From Escherichia coli (GTDB lineage Bacteria > Pseudomonadota > Gammaproteobacteria > Enterobacterales > Enterobacteriaceae): a stretch of 64,000 nucleotides of DNA. Position numbers: made by a program. Below are positions 3,001-6,000 of this stretch, piece after piece (position 1 is the stretch's first letter; every line of letters begins with the position of its first letter). The DNA lies in the NCBI RefSeq assembly GCF_044324785.1, contig NZ_CP172127.1, one strand, 5' to 3'.

Positions 3001-6000
3001 CTCCCGAAAAACCGTATACCTCGACGGGCTGGCACAGCCACTACAGTAGAGGACGCTGAGGTGTGCGTATGATTGATATTCATGCCGAATTAAACGAATA
3101 CAAAAAAGATTTTATTTCTTTACGTGAATTTCTTGAGGTCGTGCTTAAGGTCGCTGGTGATGATTATGATGTTTCAGATCTCATAACTTGGATACTCAGG
3201 AGAATAAGCGGAGAACATATCCGCCTGTACACAGTAAATGAATTTAAGCTGTTGGAATCTTTTTGTAACCCGTATCGGGATGAATTTGATTATGATGTTC
3301 TTTATAGAAATCTGGATGCGGTTCGGAAACATGGTTGTTTACCTGGTGAGAGGGATGAAAATGGTTTTCTGGTGTCCGGTTATTGGGAAGATCCCGAATT
3401 TGAGAACATTGGATTTATAAGGGGTGAAATTTTCGCAATTTTTCCCGATGTCCTTGACGCGTTAACGAAGCTGGAAGGCGCTAACTCTTCTGAAAATGAC
3501 GAGGTACAAGGACGCGATATTGAAAAGAAAGAGTTGCGTACAGAGGATGATTTATTATCCCAAATCGCAATGCTGGAAAGAGAAAACGCAGAGTTAAGGG
3601 CAAGGATAGAGCAGTTAGAGCAAGAGCGCCCGATACACTTATATAAATACTGGGATAAAGACCCATTAGCTAAGGCTATTGAGATTAGAAACAGAGAGTG
3701 GGCCAATTACGATCCAGAAAATGATTTTGCCACCAGGGGAAATCAAGAAGCGATAACCAGGGAGCTTAAGCAGTGGGGGGCAAGTAATGCTCTTGCAACG
3801 CTCATAGAGAGGACTGCCTGCCCTATTAACCGAGACAACAGCCAAAAGAACGCAAAGCCGGATTAACGCACCATACCGCATACCCTGAGGGTGATTTACT
3901 GTTACCCTGAGGGTATTTTTTTATCTTCCCCGTCAATTTTACCATCACCCTTAGGGTAGATTTCCTCCCGATTACCATCACCCTTAGGGTTAATTTCCTT
4001 CCGGTAACCATTAGGCCTGAGGGTATGAAAATATTCGTTATTTCTGTGCCATGATTACCTCGTCAAATTGAGTAGACGTTATGAGGTAAATAGATGTCAA
4101 ATACGCTTATTCGTTTAACAGAAGTTCAGCGTAGAACTGGATATAGCAAGGCATGGATTTATCGCCTTATGGGGCAAGGTAAATTTCCTGCATCAGTTAA
4201 AATTGGCTCGCGAGCGATTGCTTTCGTTGAAAGTGAAATTGACGAATGGATCAATCAGCGTATTGCCGAATCACGCGGAACGGCTGCCTGATTAAATAGC
4301 TACGGGTTATTGCCCAAGCTATCCACTAGCAAATAAAAAGTAACTTAATTCGATAGCGGAGTTTTTATGAAACTGCGAAAAACGCCCGTACAGGGGCAGG
4401 GCTTTGTTCGGCCTGAAAACCAGAATCTGCAAAATTTCGGCGAAATTATCCCGGTTATTTCCGGCGTTATTGGCGGGCGTGAAGCCGCTGTTGTTAGCGC
4501 AAAAGCGTTACACAAAGCGTTGGGCGTGGGAAAAGACTTCTCTACATGGATCACTGATCGTATCTCTGAATATGACTTCACCATTGGGTACGATTACTCA
4601 GTCCATAAAACAATTTCCCCAAATTTGGGGAAAAGCCCGAATGGCGAGGCTTACAGCAAGATTAAGCACTCTGGCAGACCCGGTAAAGACTATCTGTTAA
4701 GTGTCGGAATGGCGAAAGAACTGGCAATGATCGAACGCACCGAACAGGGCCGCGCCGTTCGTCAGTACTTCATCAAATGCGAGGAGGAGCTACACAAAGT
4801 AGCGCCAGTGCGTTCCGCAGCGTTACGCCGTGAACTGAAAGCCCGTATCACCGTTGCCAGCTACTTTAAGCCGATGTGTGCCGCGCTGGAGGCGTACCGC
4901 GCTGAACTGGGTAAAAACACGCTCCAGCACCACTACACCACGGAAGCCAATATGCTGGCGCGTATCGTGCTGGGTGGCATGACTGCAAAACAGTGGGCGC
5001 AGGCGAACGGCATCACAGGCGAACCACGCGACCACATGAGCACGCTGCAGCTTGAGCACCTTTCTTACCTTGAGCAGAGCAATATCACGCTGATTGAGTT
5101 AGGCCAGGACTACCACCAGCGGAAAGCTGAATTAATTCGTCTTTCGCAACGCTGGTTAGCCCGCCGCATGGAGGTGAGCAGCCATGCGTAAACCTGTCTT
5201 TTATGCCGGGCGCACTGAAATCTCTGTCATTAAATTCGATGACATTCAGGTGCGCATAGTGAGTATCAACGGCGAGCCGTGGTTTGTTGGCGCTGATGTG
5301 TGTGCTGCGCTGGAAATCAGCAATGTTACTGATGCTGTTTCAGTTCTGGATAACGACGAGGTAATGACCCTAGCTTTAACCGAGGGGCATTCCGGTAAGC
5401 GTGGTGGTGCCAGAAGCTGGAATGTTGTCTCTGAATCAGGTTTCTACAAACTGATCGCCCGCAGCCGTAAAGCTTCCACACCTGGCACATTTGCGCACCG
5501 TTTCAGTAACTGGGTATTCCGCGAGGTTATTCCTTCAATCCGCAAAACGGGGAGTTATGGTGTTCCGTTTGCCATGCTGAATGATTTCAGTAAACGCCAG
5601 GCTGCATATCAACAGGAAGCCAGCAAACGCGGTTACAGGTTACAGCAATGCAAAGAGGCAAAAGATGCACTGGAACGAGAAGAGCGGGCGCTATGGCGTA
5701 AATATCAGCCTGATTTTCTGGAGGGTGAAAGCAATGTGTAACGATCCGAACGTTACAGAAAGAAAAAGCGCCCCGTTGCTGGATAACAGGCAAAACAAAG
5801 GCGACCGGGATAGGTCGCCAGTGGGAACAAAGGAAATCAAACGCATCGCCAACAATGCCAGATTTGCGGCTGGTGGGCAATGTGATCAGTGTGCTGGCTT
5901 GCTGGTGGGCTATTCCTGCTCTTTAGCATCGCCATACTGCGATGTTTTCCAGGTATGCGATCCCATTTTTGTGCGCCTGTACTCTTTTAAGAACTTCTCA

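What the first reader, a model, noticed from the sequence alone, without database searches (positions are those of the whole stretch)
3069..3866. AT-shifted hypothetical gene in the int-proximal slot
The 265-aa ORF immediately downstream of the integrase has lower GC than its neighbours, a coiled-coil segment and no recognisable motif. The int-proximal position is a common site for accessory genes such as abortive-infection or exclusion genes in tRNA-integrated elements.
Basis: inference. Interest (0 to 1): 0.3.

Follow-up and report, generated by a model that had tools for sequence, protein, structure and literature searches.

The report
Candidate regulator gene guarding satellite's master switch
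The unannotated gene next to the integrase of this E. coli phage-satellite island most likely encodes a new kind of paired DNA-binding regulator that sits on a row of matching DNA sites in front of alpA, the island's master "on" switch, rather than an abortive-infection gene.

Summary
The ORF is real: 3069-3866, 265 aa, AT-shifted, with a coiled coil and no known family. It lies in an EcCICFT073/EcCIMP1-like phage-inducible chromosomal island (PICI) at tRNA-Gly.

The protein has three parts: a hypervariable N-domain, a zipper-like coiled coil, and a conserved 70-aa four-helix C-terminal domain (CTD). No sequence or fold relative was found. The family is rare and absent from 50,697 phage genomes.

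Its conserved partner is alpA, not int. 60 of 62 viral-contig loci, and all ten other contexts with downstream sequence, have an AlpA-type gene next.

The gene is one cassette:
- the Rfam int-alpA RNA as leader (2985-3052);
- the gene itself;
- four or five phased 13-bp palindromes TACCCTNAGGGTA (3881-4025);
- then alpA.

Among elements with near-identical AlpA, the palindromes occur only where this CTD is encoded (30/39 versus 0/28). The half-site changes with the CTD subfamily.

Best reading: a dimeric operator-binding regulator of the alpA promoter, with the variable N-domain as signal input. This is inferred, not shown.

The Abi/exclusion function is not supported.

The parts
1488..1561 (+). 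tRNA-Gly(CCC) (glyU), the integration site of the island
   Evidence: ARAGORN and Rfam tRNA hits. The same tRNA is present in 5410 of 5426 E. coli genomes, mostly without the island.
1687..2940 (+). P4-type tyrosine integrase
   Evidence: Pfam Arm-DNA-bind_3, Phage_int_M and Phage_integrase.
2985..3052 (+). int-alpA RNA motif (Rfam RF02996), acting here as the 5' leader of the slot gene
   Evidence: 46.9 bits against a gathering score of 35.8. Compensatory changes are seen in both helices in alignment A5. My own covariance model R1 finds it abutting the start codon of the slot gene in 45 loci, whatever the slot-gene family. It is absent from the empty-slot PICIs.
3069..3482 (+). Target gene, N-terminal alpha/beta domain (aa 1-138): hypervariable, proposed input or sensor module
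   Evidence: AlphaFold2 pLDDT is 85-90. Identity to homologues falls from 97% to 10-20% while the C-terminal domain stays at 46-75%. The domain is shuffled onto another C-terminal type. It is encoded as a separate 101-121-aa gene in about 13 of 45 loci.
3540..3626 (+). Target gene, coiled coil (aa 158-186), proposed dimerisation zipper
   Evidence: Single long helix at 159-186 in the AlphaFold2 model. Weak bZIP, DivIC and Cep57 coiled-coil Pfam hits, all below cut-off. L169, L176 and L183 are invariant or nearly so, at heptad spacing.
3627..3836 (+). Target gene, conserved C-terminal four-helix domain (aa 187-256; ...DPLxxAIxIRNxEW...AIExVACPIxR), proposed DNA-binding module
3881..3893 (.). 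Palindrome O1, TACCCTGAGGGTG
3903..3915 (.). Palindrome O2, TACCCTGAGGGTA, followed by T7; it may also act as a weak terminator for the target gene
3946..3958 (.). Palindrome O3, CACCCTTAGGGTA
3979..3991 (.). Palindrome O4, CACCCTTAGGGTT
4005..4025 (.). Promoter-proximal imperfect double site, TAACCATTAGGCCTGAGGGTA. The AGGGT half-site begins 74 nt before the alpA ATG, the same position as in L002 and L003. The related L017 also has a half-site just upstream of alpA, at -96.
   Evidence: (D12).
4055..4089 (+). Conserved alpA-proximal segment with the inverted repeat TTACCTCGT...ATGAGGTAA overlapping the alpA Shine-Dalgarno sequence. It forms the right-hand conserved flank of the cassette.
   Evidence: Shared by all alpA alleles whatever the slot content. 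The fold is not better than shuffles, z 0.42.
4094..4291 (+). alpA, the master activator of the PICI cycle in characterised relatives
   Evidence: Pfam Phage_AlpA, E 2.4e-19. Role taken from PMC6092414 and PMC11773190.

Best explanation
The gene encodes a member of an uncharacterised, satellite-restricted family of modular regulators. It belongs to a swappable regulatory cassette placed in front of alpA, the master activator of this EcCICFT073/EcCIMP1-type phage-inducible chromosomal island.

Proposed mechanism:
1. The coiled coil (aa 158-186) dimerises the protein.
2. The two conserved four-helix C-terminal domains, held together at the end of the zipper, read the two 5-bp half-sites of the compact palindrome TACCCT-N-AGGGTA.
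3. Four to five such sites lie on one face of the helix, between the gene's stop codon and about 70 bp upstream of the alpA start codon. They are occupied cooperatively and set the activity of the alpA promoter.
4. I favour repression that keeps the island quiescent. A helper-responsive activator is the alternative.
5. The hypervariable N-terminal domain is the input module. It most plausibly binds a helper-phage or host protein, so that different alleles answer to different cues, as SaPI Stl repressors do.

Shown here:
- the cassette anatomy;
- the strict alpA linkage;
- the exclusive co-occurrence and co-variation of C-terminal domain type and palindrome type;
- the helical phasing;
- domain shuffling and gene fission.

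Inferred, not shown:
- DNA binding by the C-terminal domain;
- the sign of regulation;
- sensing by the N-domain.
For: 1. Linkage to alpA, not int. The next ORF matches an AlpA model in 60 of 62 IMG/VR loci. It is an AlpA-type gene in nine of the ten other contexts that have downstream sequence; in the tenth (L018) it is a small divergent AlpA-like ORF with no Pfam hit. These include capsid/terminase-bearing islands where int lies at the far end on the other strand (L008, L009, L020).

2. Cis sites. There are four perfect ACCCTNAGGGT palindromes in 3882-3990, where 0.03 are expected in 64 kb and none occurs elsewhere in the window. In every locus encoding the family, palindromes of the same architecture sit between the gene and alpA.

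3. The sites follow this protein, not AlpA. Among 67 non-redundant loci with AlpA at least 75% identical, 30 of 39 with the C-terminal domain gene have a perfect palindrome within 300 bp of alpA. None of 28 without the gene has one, even allowing one mismatch (Fisher p = 2.4e-11). EcCIMP1, EcCICFT073 and islands with DUF6387 or other slot genes have the same AlpA helix-turn-helix but no such palindromes.

4. Co-variation of half-site and C-terminal domain subfamily:
- '...ATRGNQ...' goes with ACCCT;
- '...NNAPKAEAT...' goes with ACTAT;
- '...DTRANQQ...IDRNP' goes with ACCGT;
- a divergent last helix, '...AVNLxLRP...', goes with GGTGG/CCACC-type palindromes.

5. The sites are read as DNA, not as RNA hairpins.
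- Asymmetric ACCCT-N-ATAGT sites occur in L050 and L151, and these cannot self-pair.
- Centre-to-centre spacings are 22, 33, 43, 55, 65, 76 and 98 bp. The resultant length is 0.91 at a 10.8-bp period, against about 0.15 for random spacing. This holds across arrays whose order differs.

6. Modularity.
- N-domain identity ranges from 10% to 97% while C-terminal domain identity stays at 46-75%.
- The N-domain of P0036 recurs on a different C-terminal domain (E 1e-13).
- In about 13 of 45 loci a separate 101-121-aa gene, homologous to the N-domain of full-length family members, precedes a 152-aa coiled-coil-plus-C-terminal-domain gene (E to 1e-42).

7. Biological need. AlpA is the activator whose helper-dependent expression starts the cycle, and no master repressor is known for Gram-negative PICIs (PMC6092414; PMC11773190).
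Against: - The C-terminal domain is not markedly basic and has an invariant Glu and Cys-Pro.
- Gene and palindromes are physically linked in one cassette, so co-occurrence could reflect co-inheritance rather than binding.
- 9 of 39 loci with the C-terminal domain lack a perfect palindrome, although most show variant repeats.
- O2, and the first palindromes in some subfamilies, are followed by T-runs and could simply be terminators.
- The sites lie downstream of the gene, not at its own promoter.
- EcCICFT073 and EcCIMP1 complete helper-dependent induction with an empty slot, so the protein is not required for PICI induction in general.
- No sigma-70-like promoter was detected in 2800-4400, so the position of the sites relative to the alpA transcription start is only estimated.
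- Helper-phage dependence of this particular island is untested.
Confidence: 0.55

Rival explanations
1. The gene is accessory cargo with an anti-phage role, such as abortive infection, superinfection exclusion or helper interference. The variable N-domain recognises a phage protein, and the conserved C-terminal part delivers the effect. The palindromes are only cassette-borne terminators or expression signals.
For: - The slot is variable or empty among close relatives.
- The gene is AT-shifted.
- The PICI 5' end is a reported immune-gene site (PMC11364771).
- Hypervariable recognition domains are typical of arms races.
- EcCIMP1-like islands give unexplained superinfection immunity with no known defence gene (PMC11773190).
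- A conserved leader RNA precedes every slot-gene family, like a shared expression platform for cargo.
Against: - Neither the gene nor 9 alternative slot proteins hit PADLOC.
- There is no enzymatic, pore-forming or NTPase domain; the conserved part is a 70-aa helical bundle.
- The slot holds only single genes of about 150-380 aa (two where the N-domain is split off), not the mixed multi-gene systems typical of defence hotspots.
- Strict adjacency to alpA holds even away from int.
- Phased, co-varying, partly asymmetric palindromes are hard to explain as terminators.
- EcCIMP1, the island with the immunity phenotype, lacks this gene.
Confidence: 0.2
2. The protein is a helper-responsive activator or co-activator of alpA rather than a repressor. 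It is bound at the phased sites, the nearest centred roughly 50 bp upstream of the estimated start point. It recruits RNA polymerase to a promoter lacking a -35 element once its N-domain has bound a helper cue.
For: - No sigma-70 consensus promoter is found upstream of alpA.
- The proximal site lies upstream of, rather than over, the weak -10-like hexamer just 5' of the conserved alpA leader (my reading of the sequence).
- alpA promoters in relatives are silent without a helper and need activation (PMC6092414).
Against: - Relatives with no such gene still activate alpA on helper induction.
- The transcription start is unmapped, so the site positions are estimates.
- Arrays of four or five cooperative sites spanning about 140 bp are more typical of repression or looping.
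Confidence: 0.2
3. The protein has no DNA-binding role. It is a protein-protein adaptor, for example binding AlpA, integrase, SSB-interacting proteins or a helper component through its conserved C-terminal domain. The palindromes are bound by another factor, or act as terminators or roadblocks that insulate alpA from int read-through.
For: - No DNA-binding fold was detected.
- The split-off N-domain proteins end in ...PPMDFDDDIPF, the E. coli SSB C-terminal peptide that docks many proteins (the SSB tail sequence is from my own knowledge).
- O2 plus T7 scores as terminator-like.
- The int-to-alpA spacer of empty-slot islands carries nut-like boxB and boxA motifs, suggesting that termination control operates in this interval.
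Against: - The palindrome type changes with the C-terminal domain subfamily, while AlpA and int stay the same or vary independently.
- No other cassette-encoded candidate binder exists.
- Helical phasing and non-self-complementary hybrid sites argue for a dimeric double-stranded-DNA reader.
Confidence: 0.15

Closest known systems
Stl master repressors of staphylococcal pathogenicity islands (Gram-positive PICIs)
   Same: Both are satellite-encoded and sit next to int. Both are dimeric, extremely divergent between elements, and positioned to gate the island's master switch. In Stl the divergent part binds helper-phage proteins, and the same is proposed here.
   Different: Stl has an N-terminal Cro/CI-type helix-turn-helix and is transcribed divergently from the genes it represses. 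This protein has no detectable helix-turn-helix, carries its conserved putative DNA-binding domain at the C-terminus after a zipper, and is co-oriented with alpA. There is no sequence or fold similarity, and its function is untested.
Immunity regions of lambdoid phages (cI/Cro with cognate operators, exchanged as imm cassettes)
   Same: A regulator gene and its matching operator array are replaced together between conserved flanks. Here the flanks are the int-alpA leader RNA on the left and the alpA-proximal 45 bp on the right. The result is many specificity types on one backbone.
   Different: There is no HTH_3 or S24 peptidase architecture, no divergent promoter pair, and no second Cro-like gene. 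The half-sites are only 6 bp apart centre to centre.
Bro-N/KilA-N/AntA domain-swapping network of DNA-interacting proteins in PICI 'Bro zones' (PMC10111431), including the PLE repressor CapR
   Same: Free shuffling of N- and C-terminal modules in satellite regulatory regions. Some members act as repressors.
   Different: No Bro-N, KilA-N, AntA or KilAC domain was detected. The gene lies upstream of alpA in the 'integration zone', whereas the island's own AntA and Bro-N genes lie downstream (4367-5741).
Immune-gene hotspot at the 5' end of PICIs (cited in PMC11364771 as earlier work of that group)
   Same: Same map position between int and the regulatory module, with presence/absence and replacement variation.
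   Different: There is no match to any catalogued defence protein, the genes are single and architecturally uniform, and cognate operator arrays are present.
int-alpA RNA motif (Rfam RF02996)
   Same: The motif is present at 2985-3052 above the gathering score, with covariation.
   Different: Rfam files it as an sRNA gene named after its neighbours. Here, and in 45 further loci, it ends at the start codon of the slot gene. It is missing where the slot is empty, so it behaves as the 5' leader of the slot-gene cassette rather than as an element between int and alpA as such.
bZIP transcription factors
   Same: A leucine-zipper dimer placed directly next to the DNA-reading part, recognising a very compact palindrome.
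   Different: The order is reversed: the zipper comes first, followed by a folded four-helix domain instead of a basic helix. Only sub-threshold Pfam coiled-coil hits were found, and there is no homology.

Membership tests
Gram-negative PICI of the EcCICFT073/EcCIMP1 type (the element that carries the gene) | Integrase at one end next to a specific attachment site, with alpA downstream and co-oriented | tested here: met
   tRNA-Gly 1488-1561, int 1687-2940 and alpA 4094-4291 all lie on the + strand.
Gram-negative PICI of the EcCICFT073/EcCIMP1 type (the element that carries the gene) | Shared backbone: YlcI/YnfO, Icd-like, DUF4222, primase (DUF927), SSB and PerC in the same order, with no tail or lysis genes | tested here: met
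   RefSeq annotation of the identical SCU-105 region, compared with EcCICFT073 and EcCIMP1. The four 3' ORFs have no assignable function.
Gram-negative PICI of the EcCICFT073/EcCIMP1 type (the element that carries the gene) | Helper-phage-dependent excision, replication and packaging | not testable with these tools
   This needs induction and transduction experiments.
Catalogued anti-phage defence proteins (PADLOC-DB 2.0) | Profile match to a defence-system component | tested here: not met
   No family matched at E <= 1 for the target. None matched at E <= 0.01 for 9 alternative slot proteins.
Stl/CI-type master repressor | N-terminal HTH_3/XRE DNA-binding domain | tested here: not met
   No helix-turn-helix Pfam hit. 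The N-domain model has no significant PDB neighbour.
Stl/CI-type master repressor | Cognate operators at the promoter of the genes that start the cycle | tested here: inconclusive
   A co-varying palindrome array lies upstream of alpA. Binding and the transcription start site are unmeasured.
Stl/CI-type master repressor | Derepression by a helper-phage protein | not testable with these tools
   This needs genetics or interaction assays.
AlpA/Xis/MerR-type HTH_17 proteins | Pfam PF05930 or PF12728 match | tested here: not met
   There is no hit for the target. The neighbouring alpA matches at 2.4e-19. The beta-alpha-alpha-beta-beta start of the N-domain is only a visual resemblance.
Bro-N/KilA-N/AntA network | Presence of a Bro-N, KilA-N, AntA or KilAC/ANT domain | tested here: not met
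   Pfam scans of the target, 30 homologues and 85 distant relatives found none.
Rfam RF02996 int-alpA RNA (leader of the gene) | Covariance-model score at or above the gathering threshold, with structure supported by compensatory changes | tested here: met
   46.9 bits against 35.8. Compensatory pairs are seen in both helices across the 7 sequences of A5.

The most novel reading that the evidence does not exclude
This family, and by extension the other modular proteins that occupy the same leader-to-alpA slot, is the missing helper-sensing master regulator of many Gram-negative phage-inducible chromosomal islands. It would work through a previously undescribed zipper-plus-four-helix DNA-binding domain that holds the alpA promoter. 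Its interchangeable N-domains would determine which helper phage (or which host or phage protein, for example through SSB-tail mimicry in the split versions) can switch the island on.
Probability: 0.25. Interest if true: 0.8.

Novelty: new variant of a known kind. Interest (0 to 1): 0.55.

Why it matters
How Gram-negative PICIs stay silent, and how a helper phage turns on alpA, has been open since these islands were described. The 2018 paper states that a global repressor is unclear and that the phage inducer is unknown (PMC6092414).

A cassette made of a leader RNA, a modular regulator and its own operator array, placed directly in front of alpA, gives that question a concrete and cheap test. 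The pieces are a 265-aa protein, a 227-bp DNA fragment and a reporter.

If confirmed, the work would:
- define a new DNA-binding domain with readable specificity rules (ACCCT, ACTAT and ACCGT types);
- explain part of helper specificity and satellite-satellite immunity;
- give a function to the orphan Rfam motif int-alpA;
- supply orthogonal repressor/operator pairs for engineered PICI 'drones'.

If the defence reading is right instead, it would add a family to the PICI immune repertoire.

Tried and rejected
**Family and structure searches**
- Pfam, NCBIfam, PHROGs and PADLOC gave only sub-threshold coiled-coil hits.
- PDB sequence profiles gave BRE1 and CsbD-like PA4738 at E about 0.1, treated as chance.
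- The AFDB50 library was unavailable.

**Ideas tested and dropped**
- AlpA as the binder of the palindromes. Rejected, because identical AlpA helix-turn-helix alleles without this gene lack them: 0 of 28.
- The palindromes as RNA hairpins or boxB-like sites. Rejected because the loop is 1 nt, asymmetric hybrid sites exist, and the spacing follows a 10.8-bp phase. O2 may still terminate weakly.
- EcCIMP1_002, the 'UvrB-like' small ORF of PMC11773190, as a homologue. The EcCIMP1 spacer encodes nothing related.
- Short (64-125 aa) database 'homologues' as minimal forms. The two looked up (P0044, P0045) lie on 444-bp and 1451-bp contigs with the gene at the contig start, so most short forms are probably fragments.
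- The integrative mobilizable element (PIME) reading (bioRxiv 10.64898/2026.01.12.698999). There are no tra or trb genes, and the backbone matches PICIs.
- The alpA Shine-Dalgarno-occluding hairpin. It is conserved in sequence, but its folding energy is no better than shuffles.

**Negative searches**
- No homologue, and no similar operator region, in 50,697 GenBank phage genomes.
- No sigma-70 consensus promoter in 2800-4400.
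Full report
**Observation.**
The ORF at 3069-3866 (+) exists as described, at 265 aa. 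A GAGG lies 7 nt before the ATG, and RefSeq calls the same CDS in the 100%-identical E. coli SCU-105 chromosome. It follows a P4-type integrase (1687-2940) that sits next to tRNA-Gly(CCC) at 1488-1561.

GC content is 41.5%, against 50.1% for int and 52.8% for antA. Only 2.3% of equal-sized windows inside the island are as low. The shift is concentrated in the N-terminal domain: 38.9%, against 46.4% for the C-terminal domain.

A single long helix at 159-186, together with sub-threshold zipper-type Pfam hits, supports the coiled coil. Pfam, NCBIfam, PHROGs and PADLOC give nothing significant.

**The element.**
The gene order is as follows:
- actS/ygeR, tRNA-Gly, int, the target gene, AlpA, AntA, Bro-N;
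- two small minus-strand genes, including YlcI/YnfO;
- Icd-like, a hypothetical gene, DUF4222, a DUF927 primase, SSB, ProQ/FinO, a hypothetical gene, a frameshifted PerC, a hypothetical gene;
- four unassignable ORFs.

The backbone matches the experimentally characterised PICIs EcCICFT073 and EcCIMP1. In those islands AlpA is the activator whose helper-phage-dependent expression starts the cycle. A master repressor for Gram-negative PICIs has not been identified (PMC6092414; PMC11773190).

**The protein.**
Homologues are few and confined to Enterobacteria and metagenomes. The alignment shows three parts:
- an N-terminal region of about 138 aa, whose identity to the query falls from 97% to 10-20%;
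- a heptad-spaced Leu zipper at 158-186;
- a C-terminal domain (CTD, 187-256) that stays 46-75% identical, with the motif ...DPLxxAIxIRNxEW...AIExVACPIxR.

A profile of the CTD finds only 114 representatives among 1.84 billion clusters. The domain is at or near the C-terminus in nearly all full-length hits, and the N-termini are diverse and unannotated.

**What the gene is linked to.**
In every context examined the next gene downstream, 80-250 bp away and co-oriented, is an AlpA-type gene.
- This held in all ten look-ups that had downstream sequence. Nine carry a Pfam-supported AlpA. In the tenth (L018) it is a small divergent AlpA-like ORF with no Pfam hit.
- It held in 60 of 62 IMG/VR loci.

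Three of these elements carry capsid, portal and terminase genes upstream of the gene, and the integrase at the far end on the other strand (L008, L009, L020). Proximity to int is therefore incidental, and proximity to alpA is the conserved feature.

**The cis elements.**
The 227-bp spacer to alpA holds four perfect ACCCTNAGGGT palindromes at 3882, 3904, 3947 and 3980. An imperfect double site follows at 4005-4025. Only 0.03 perfect palindromes are expected in the whole window, and none occurs elsewhere in it.

Every locus encoding the family has palindromes of the same build, AC-xx-T-N-A-xx-GT, in the same place, and almost nowhere else in up to 41 kb of flank.

The key control uses 67 non-redundant viral-contig loci whose AlpA is at least 75% identical to this one.
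- 39 encode the CTD upstream, and 30 of these have at least one perfect palindrome within 300 bp of alpA.
- 28 do not encode it, and none has a palindrome even with one mismatch allowed (Fisher p = 2.4e-11).

EcCIMP1, EcCICFT073 and islands with DUF6387 or other slot genes have the same AlpA recognition region but no such sites. The sites therefore go with this protein, not with AlpA.

The half-site also changes with the CTD subfamily:
- ACCCT with '...ATRGNQ...';
- ACTAT with '...NNAPKAEAT...';
- ACCGT with '...DTRANQQ...IDRNP';
- GGTGG/CCACC-type palindromes where the last helix is replaced by '...AVNLxLRP...'.

Some arrays consist of asymmetric ACCCT-N-ATAGT sites, which cannot form hairpins. 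Spacings between neighbouring sites are 22, 33, 43, 55, 65, 76 and 98 bp. The resultant length is 0.91 at a 10.8-bp period, against about 0.15 for random spacing, and this holds in arrays whose order differs. These are the properties of double-stranded-DNA operators read by a symmetric dimer on one face of the helix.

**The cassette and its left border.**
Rfam's int-alpA RNA (RF02996) matches 2985-3052 at 46.9 bits against a gathering score of 35.8. Seven examples show compensatory changes in both helices.

A covariance model built from them finds the motif ending at the start codon of the slot gene in 45 loci, whatever family that gene belongs to. It is also present in the capsid-bearing islands that have no int nearby. 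It is absent from the empty-slot islands EcCICFT073 and EcCIMP1.

On the right, only about 45 bp before alpA are shared by all alleles. The unit that is exchanged is therefore leader RNA, then gene, then operators.

At least 9 other protein families occupy this unit, including DUF6387 and a 'GKDTALKLIAGMAIAL' C-terminal type. None matches PADLOC. Several of them show their own repeats before alpA, by my reading.

The modules recombine.
- The N-domain of P0036 recurs on the other C-terminal type (E 1e-13).
- In 15 of 45 loci the leader is followed by two genes. In about 13 of these a separate 101-121-aa gene, homologous to the N-domain of full-length family members, precedes a 152-aa zipper-plus-CTD gene (E to 1e-42).

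**Interpretation.**
The best-supported reading is a dimeric, sequence-specific regulator whose CTDs bind the phased operator array and control the alpA promoter. The N-domain would be an exchangeable input module. This resembles an immunity-type cassette and is functionally analogous to SaPI Stl.

The anatomy, the linkage, the co-occurrence and co-variation, the phasing and the modularity are shown. DNA binding, the sign of regulation and sensing are inferred.

I favour repression, because an array of cooperative sites in front of an auto-activating master switch suggests it. An activator role is possible, because no consensus promoter is present and the nearest site lies upstream of the weak -10-like element.

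Three points count against the model:
- no DNA-binding fold is recognisable;
- physical linkage alone could produce the co-occurrence;
- EcCICFT073 and EcCIMP1 work without the cassette, so at most it is an optional extra layer.

The slot is indeed variable, and the literature reports the PICI 5' end as an immune-gene site (PMC11364771). However, nothing here carries a defence signature. The occupants are architecturally uniform single genes rather than assorted systems, and the cognate operators point to regulation. I rate the abortive-infection or exclusion function at about 0.2. A phage-challenge assay remains the direct test.

**Novelty.**
I found no paper describing this family, its domain or its operators. 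The four-zone PICI scheme places only int and AlpA in the 'integration zone' (PMC10111431).

The kind of thing is familiar: a mobile-element regulator with cognate operators. The domain, its architecture, its pairing with the int-alpA RNA and its position before alpA are not. Hence 'new variant of a known kind', with moderate-to-good interest, because it makes the open question of Gram-negative PICI control directly testable.

Noticed in passing
window 2985-3052 (+); also L002 7919-7986, L003 7917-7984, L005 7918-7985, L015 2327-2394, L008 5915-5980, L020 4054-4119: The Rfam 'int-alpA RNA' (RF02996, filed as an sRNA) ends at the start codon of whatever gene fills the slot before alpA (45 loci). 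It occurs without int nearby and is absent where the slot is empty. It therefore behaves as a 5' leader of the slot-gene cassette. Its consensus P1 stem followed by a U-run looks terminator-like, but this copy lacks the U-run.
   Followed up: partly
L124 483-803, L154 456-776, L139 455-775, L122 477-806, L155 446-781, L117 453-806, L145 228-593, L119 545-850: In two-gene versions of the slot, the separately encoded N-domain proteins (101-121 aa) end in ...EPPMDFDDDIPF (variants ALDFDSDIPF, GDIPF). This is the C-terminal peptide of E. coli SSB, which docks many genome-maintenance proteins, so it is possible SSB-tail mimicry. The island's own SSB (window 9660-10082) ends in ...GDGIPF.
   Followed up: partly
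L010 (EcCIMP1) 19094-19106 and 19184-19198, minus strand; L014 (ETEC H10407 island) 2915-2929, 3082-3094, 3195-3207, 3234-3248: In empty-slot PICIs the int-to-alpA spacer carries P22-type boxB-like (CGCTGACAAAGCG) and lambda-type boxB-like (GCCCTGRARAAGGGC) hairpins on the sense strand. Each is followed by an rrn/lambda boxA-like sequence (GCTCTTTAACA or CGCTCTTTTA). Among 165 loci they were found nowhere else. This suggests that helper N or Nus-type antitermination of int read-through could be how helpers switch on alpA there; EcCIMP1's helper, Kapi1, is a temperate podovirus. The boxB and boxA consensus sequences are from my own knowledge.
   Followed up: partly
window 11685-14216, 14216-16276, 16276-19032, 19032-19346 (+): Four tightly packed or overlapping ORFs (842, 685, 917 and 103 aa) at the 3' accessory end of the island have no Pfam or PADLOC hit at all. 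EcCIMP1 carries phage DNA-ejection-like genes in this position. They are a candidate for an undescribed system or for divergent ejection proteins.
   Followed up: partly
window 4055-4089: The inverted repeat TTACCTCGT...ATGAGGTAA overlaps the alpA Shine-Dalgarno sequence and is conserved in all alpA alleles regardless of slot content. Its predicted folding energy is no better than shuffled sequence (z 0.42).
   Followed up: partly
L105, L106, L108, L114, L132, L134, L137, L153 (about 260 bp upstream of alpA at 1501): A sister subgroup of the family has a changed last helix (...AVNL(I/V)LRP..L..IGRR.KK) and no ACCCT sites. It has GGTGG/CCACC-type palindromes instead, for example TGGTGGTCACCA and TACCCACCC...GGGTGGGTA. 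This looks like a natural specificity switch.
   Followed up: partly
window 1-20000, compared with L005, L008, L010, L011, L014, L015, L020: Related islands carry P4-type immunity RNAs downstream of alpA: Rfam C4 in all seven, and isrK in five (L010, L011, L014, L015, L020). This island, and L003 at the same site, give no C4 or isrK hit at gathering score. L002, the other glyU locus, ends about 1 kb past alpA and is uninformative.
   Followed up: no
L011 2752-3342, L012 2602-3357, L145 slot gene; L013 2529-3380, L015 2409-3290: Alternative occupants of the same slot include proteins sharing a different conserved C-terminal motif, GK(D/N)TAL(K/M)(L/M)IAGMAIAL, and DUF6387 proteins. L012 and L011 show their own repeated half-sites before alpA (TTCCCAAA/CCCAATTTGGG and TTCCGTGGAA). 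This hints that other slot families are also operator-binding regulators.
   Followed up: partly
window about 11025-11250 (L001 28126-28351): The PerC-family regulator gene of the island is annotated as frameshifted in the identical RefSeq record. PerC-like genes of related PICIs have been linked to LEE virulence regulation (PMC11773190).
   Followed up: no
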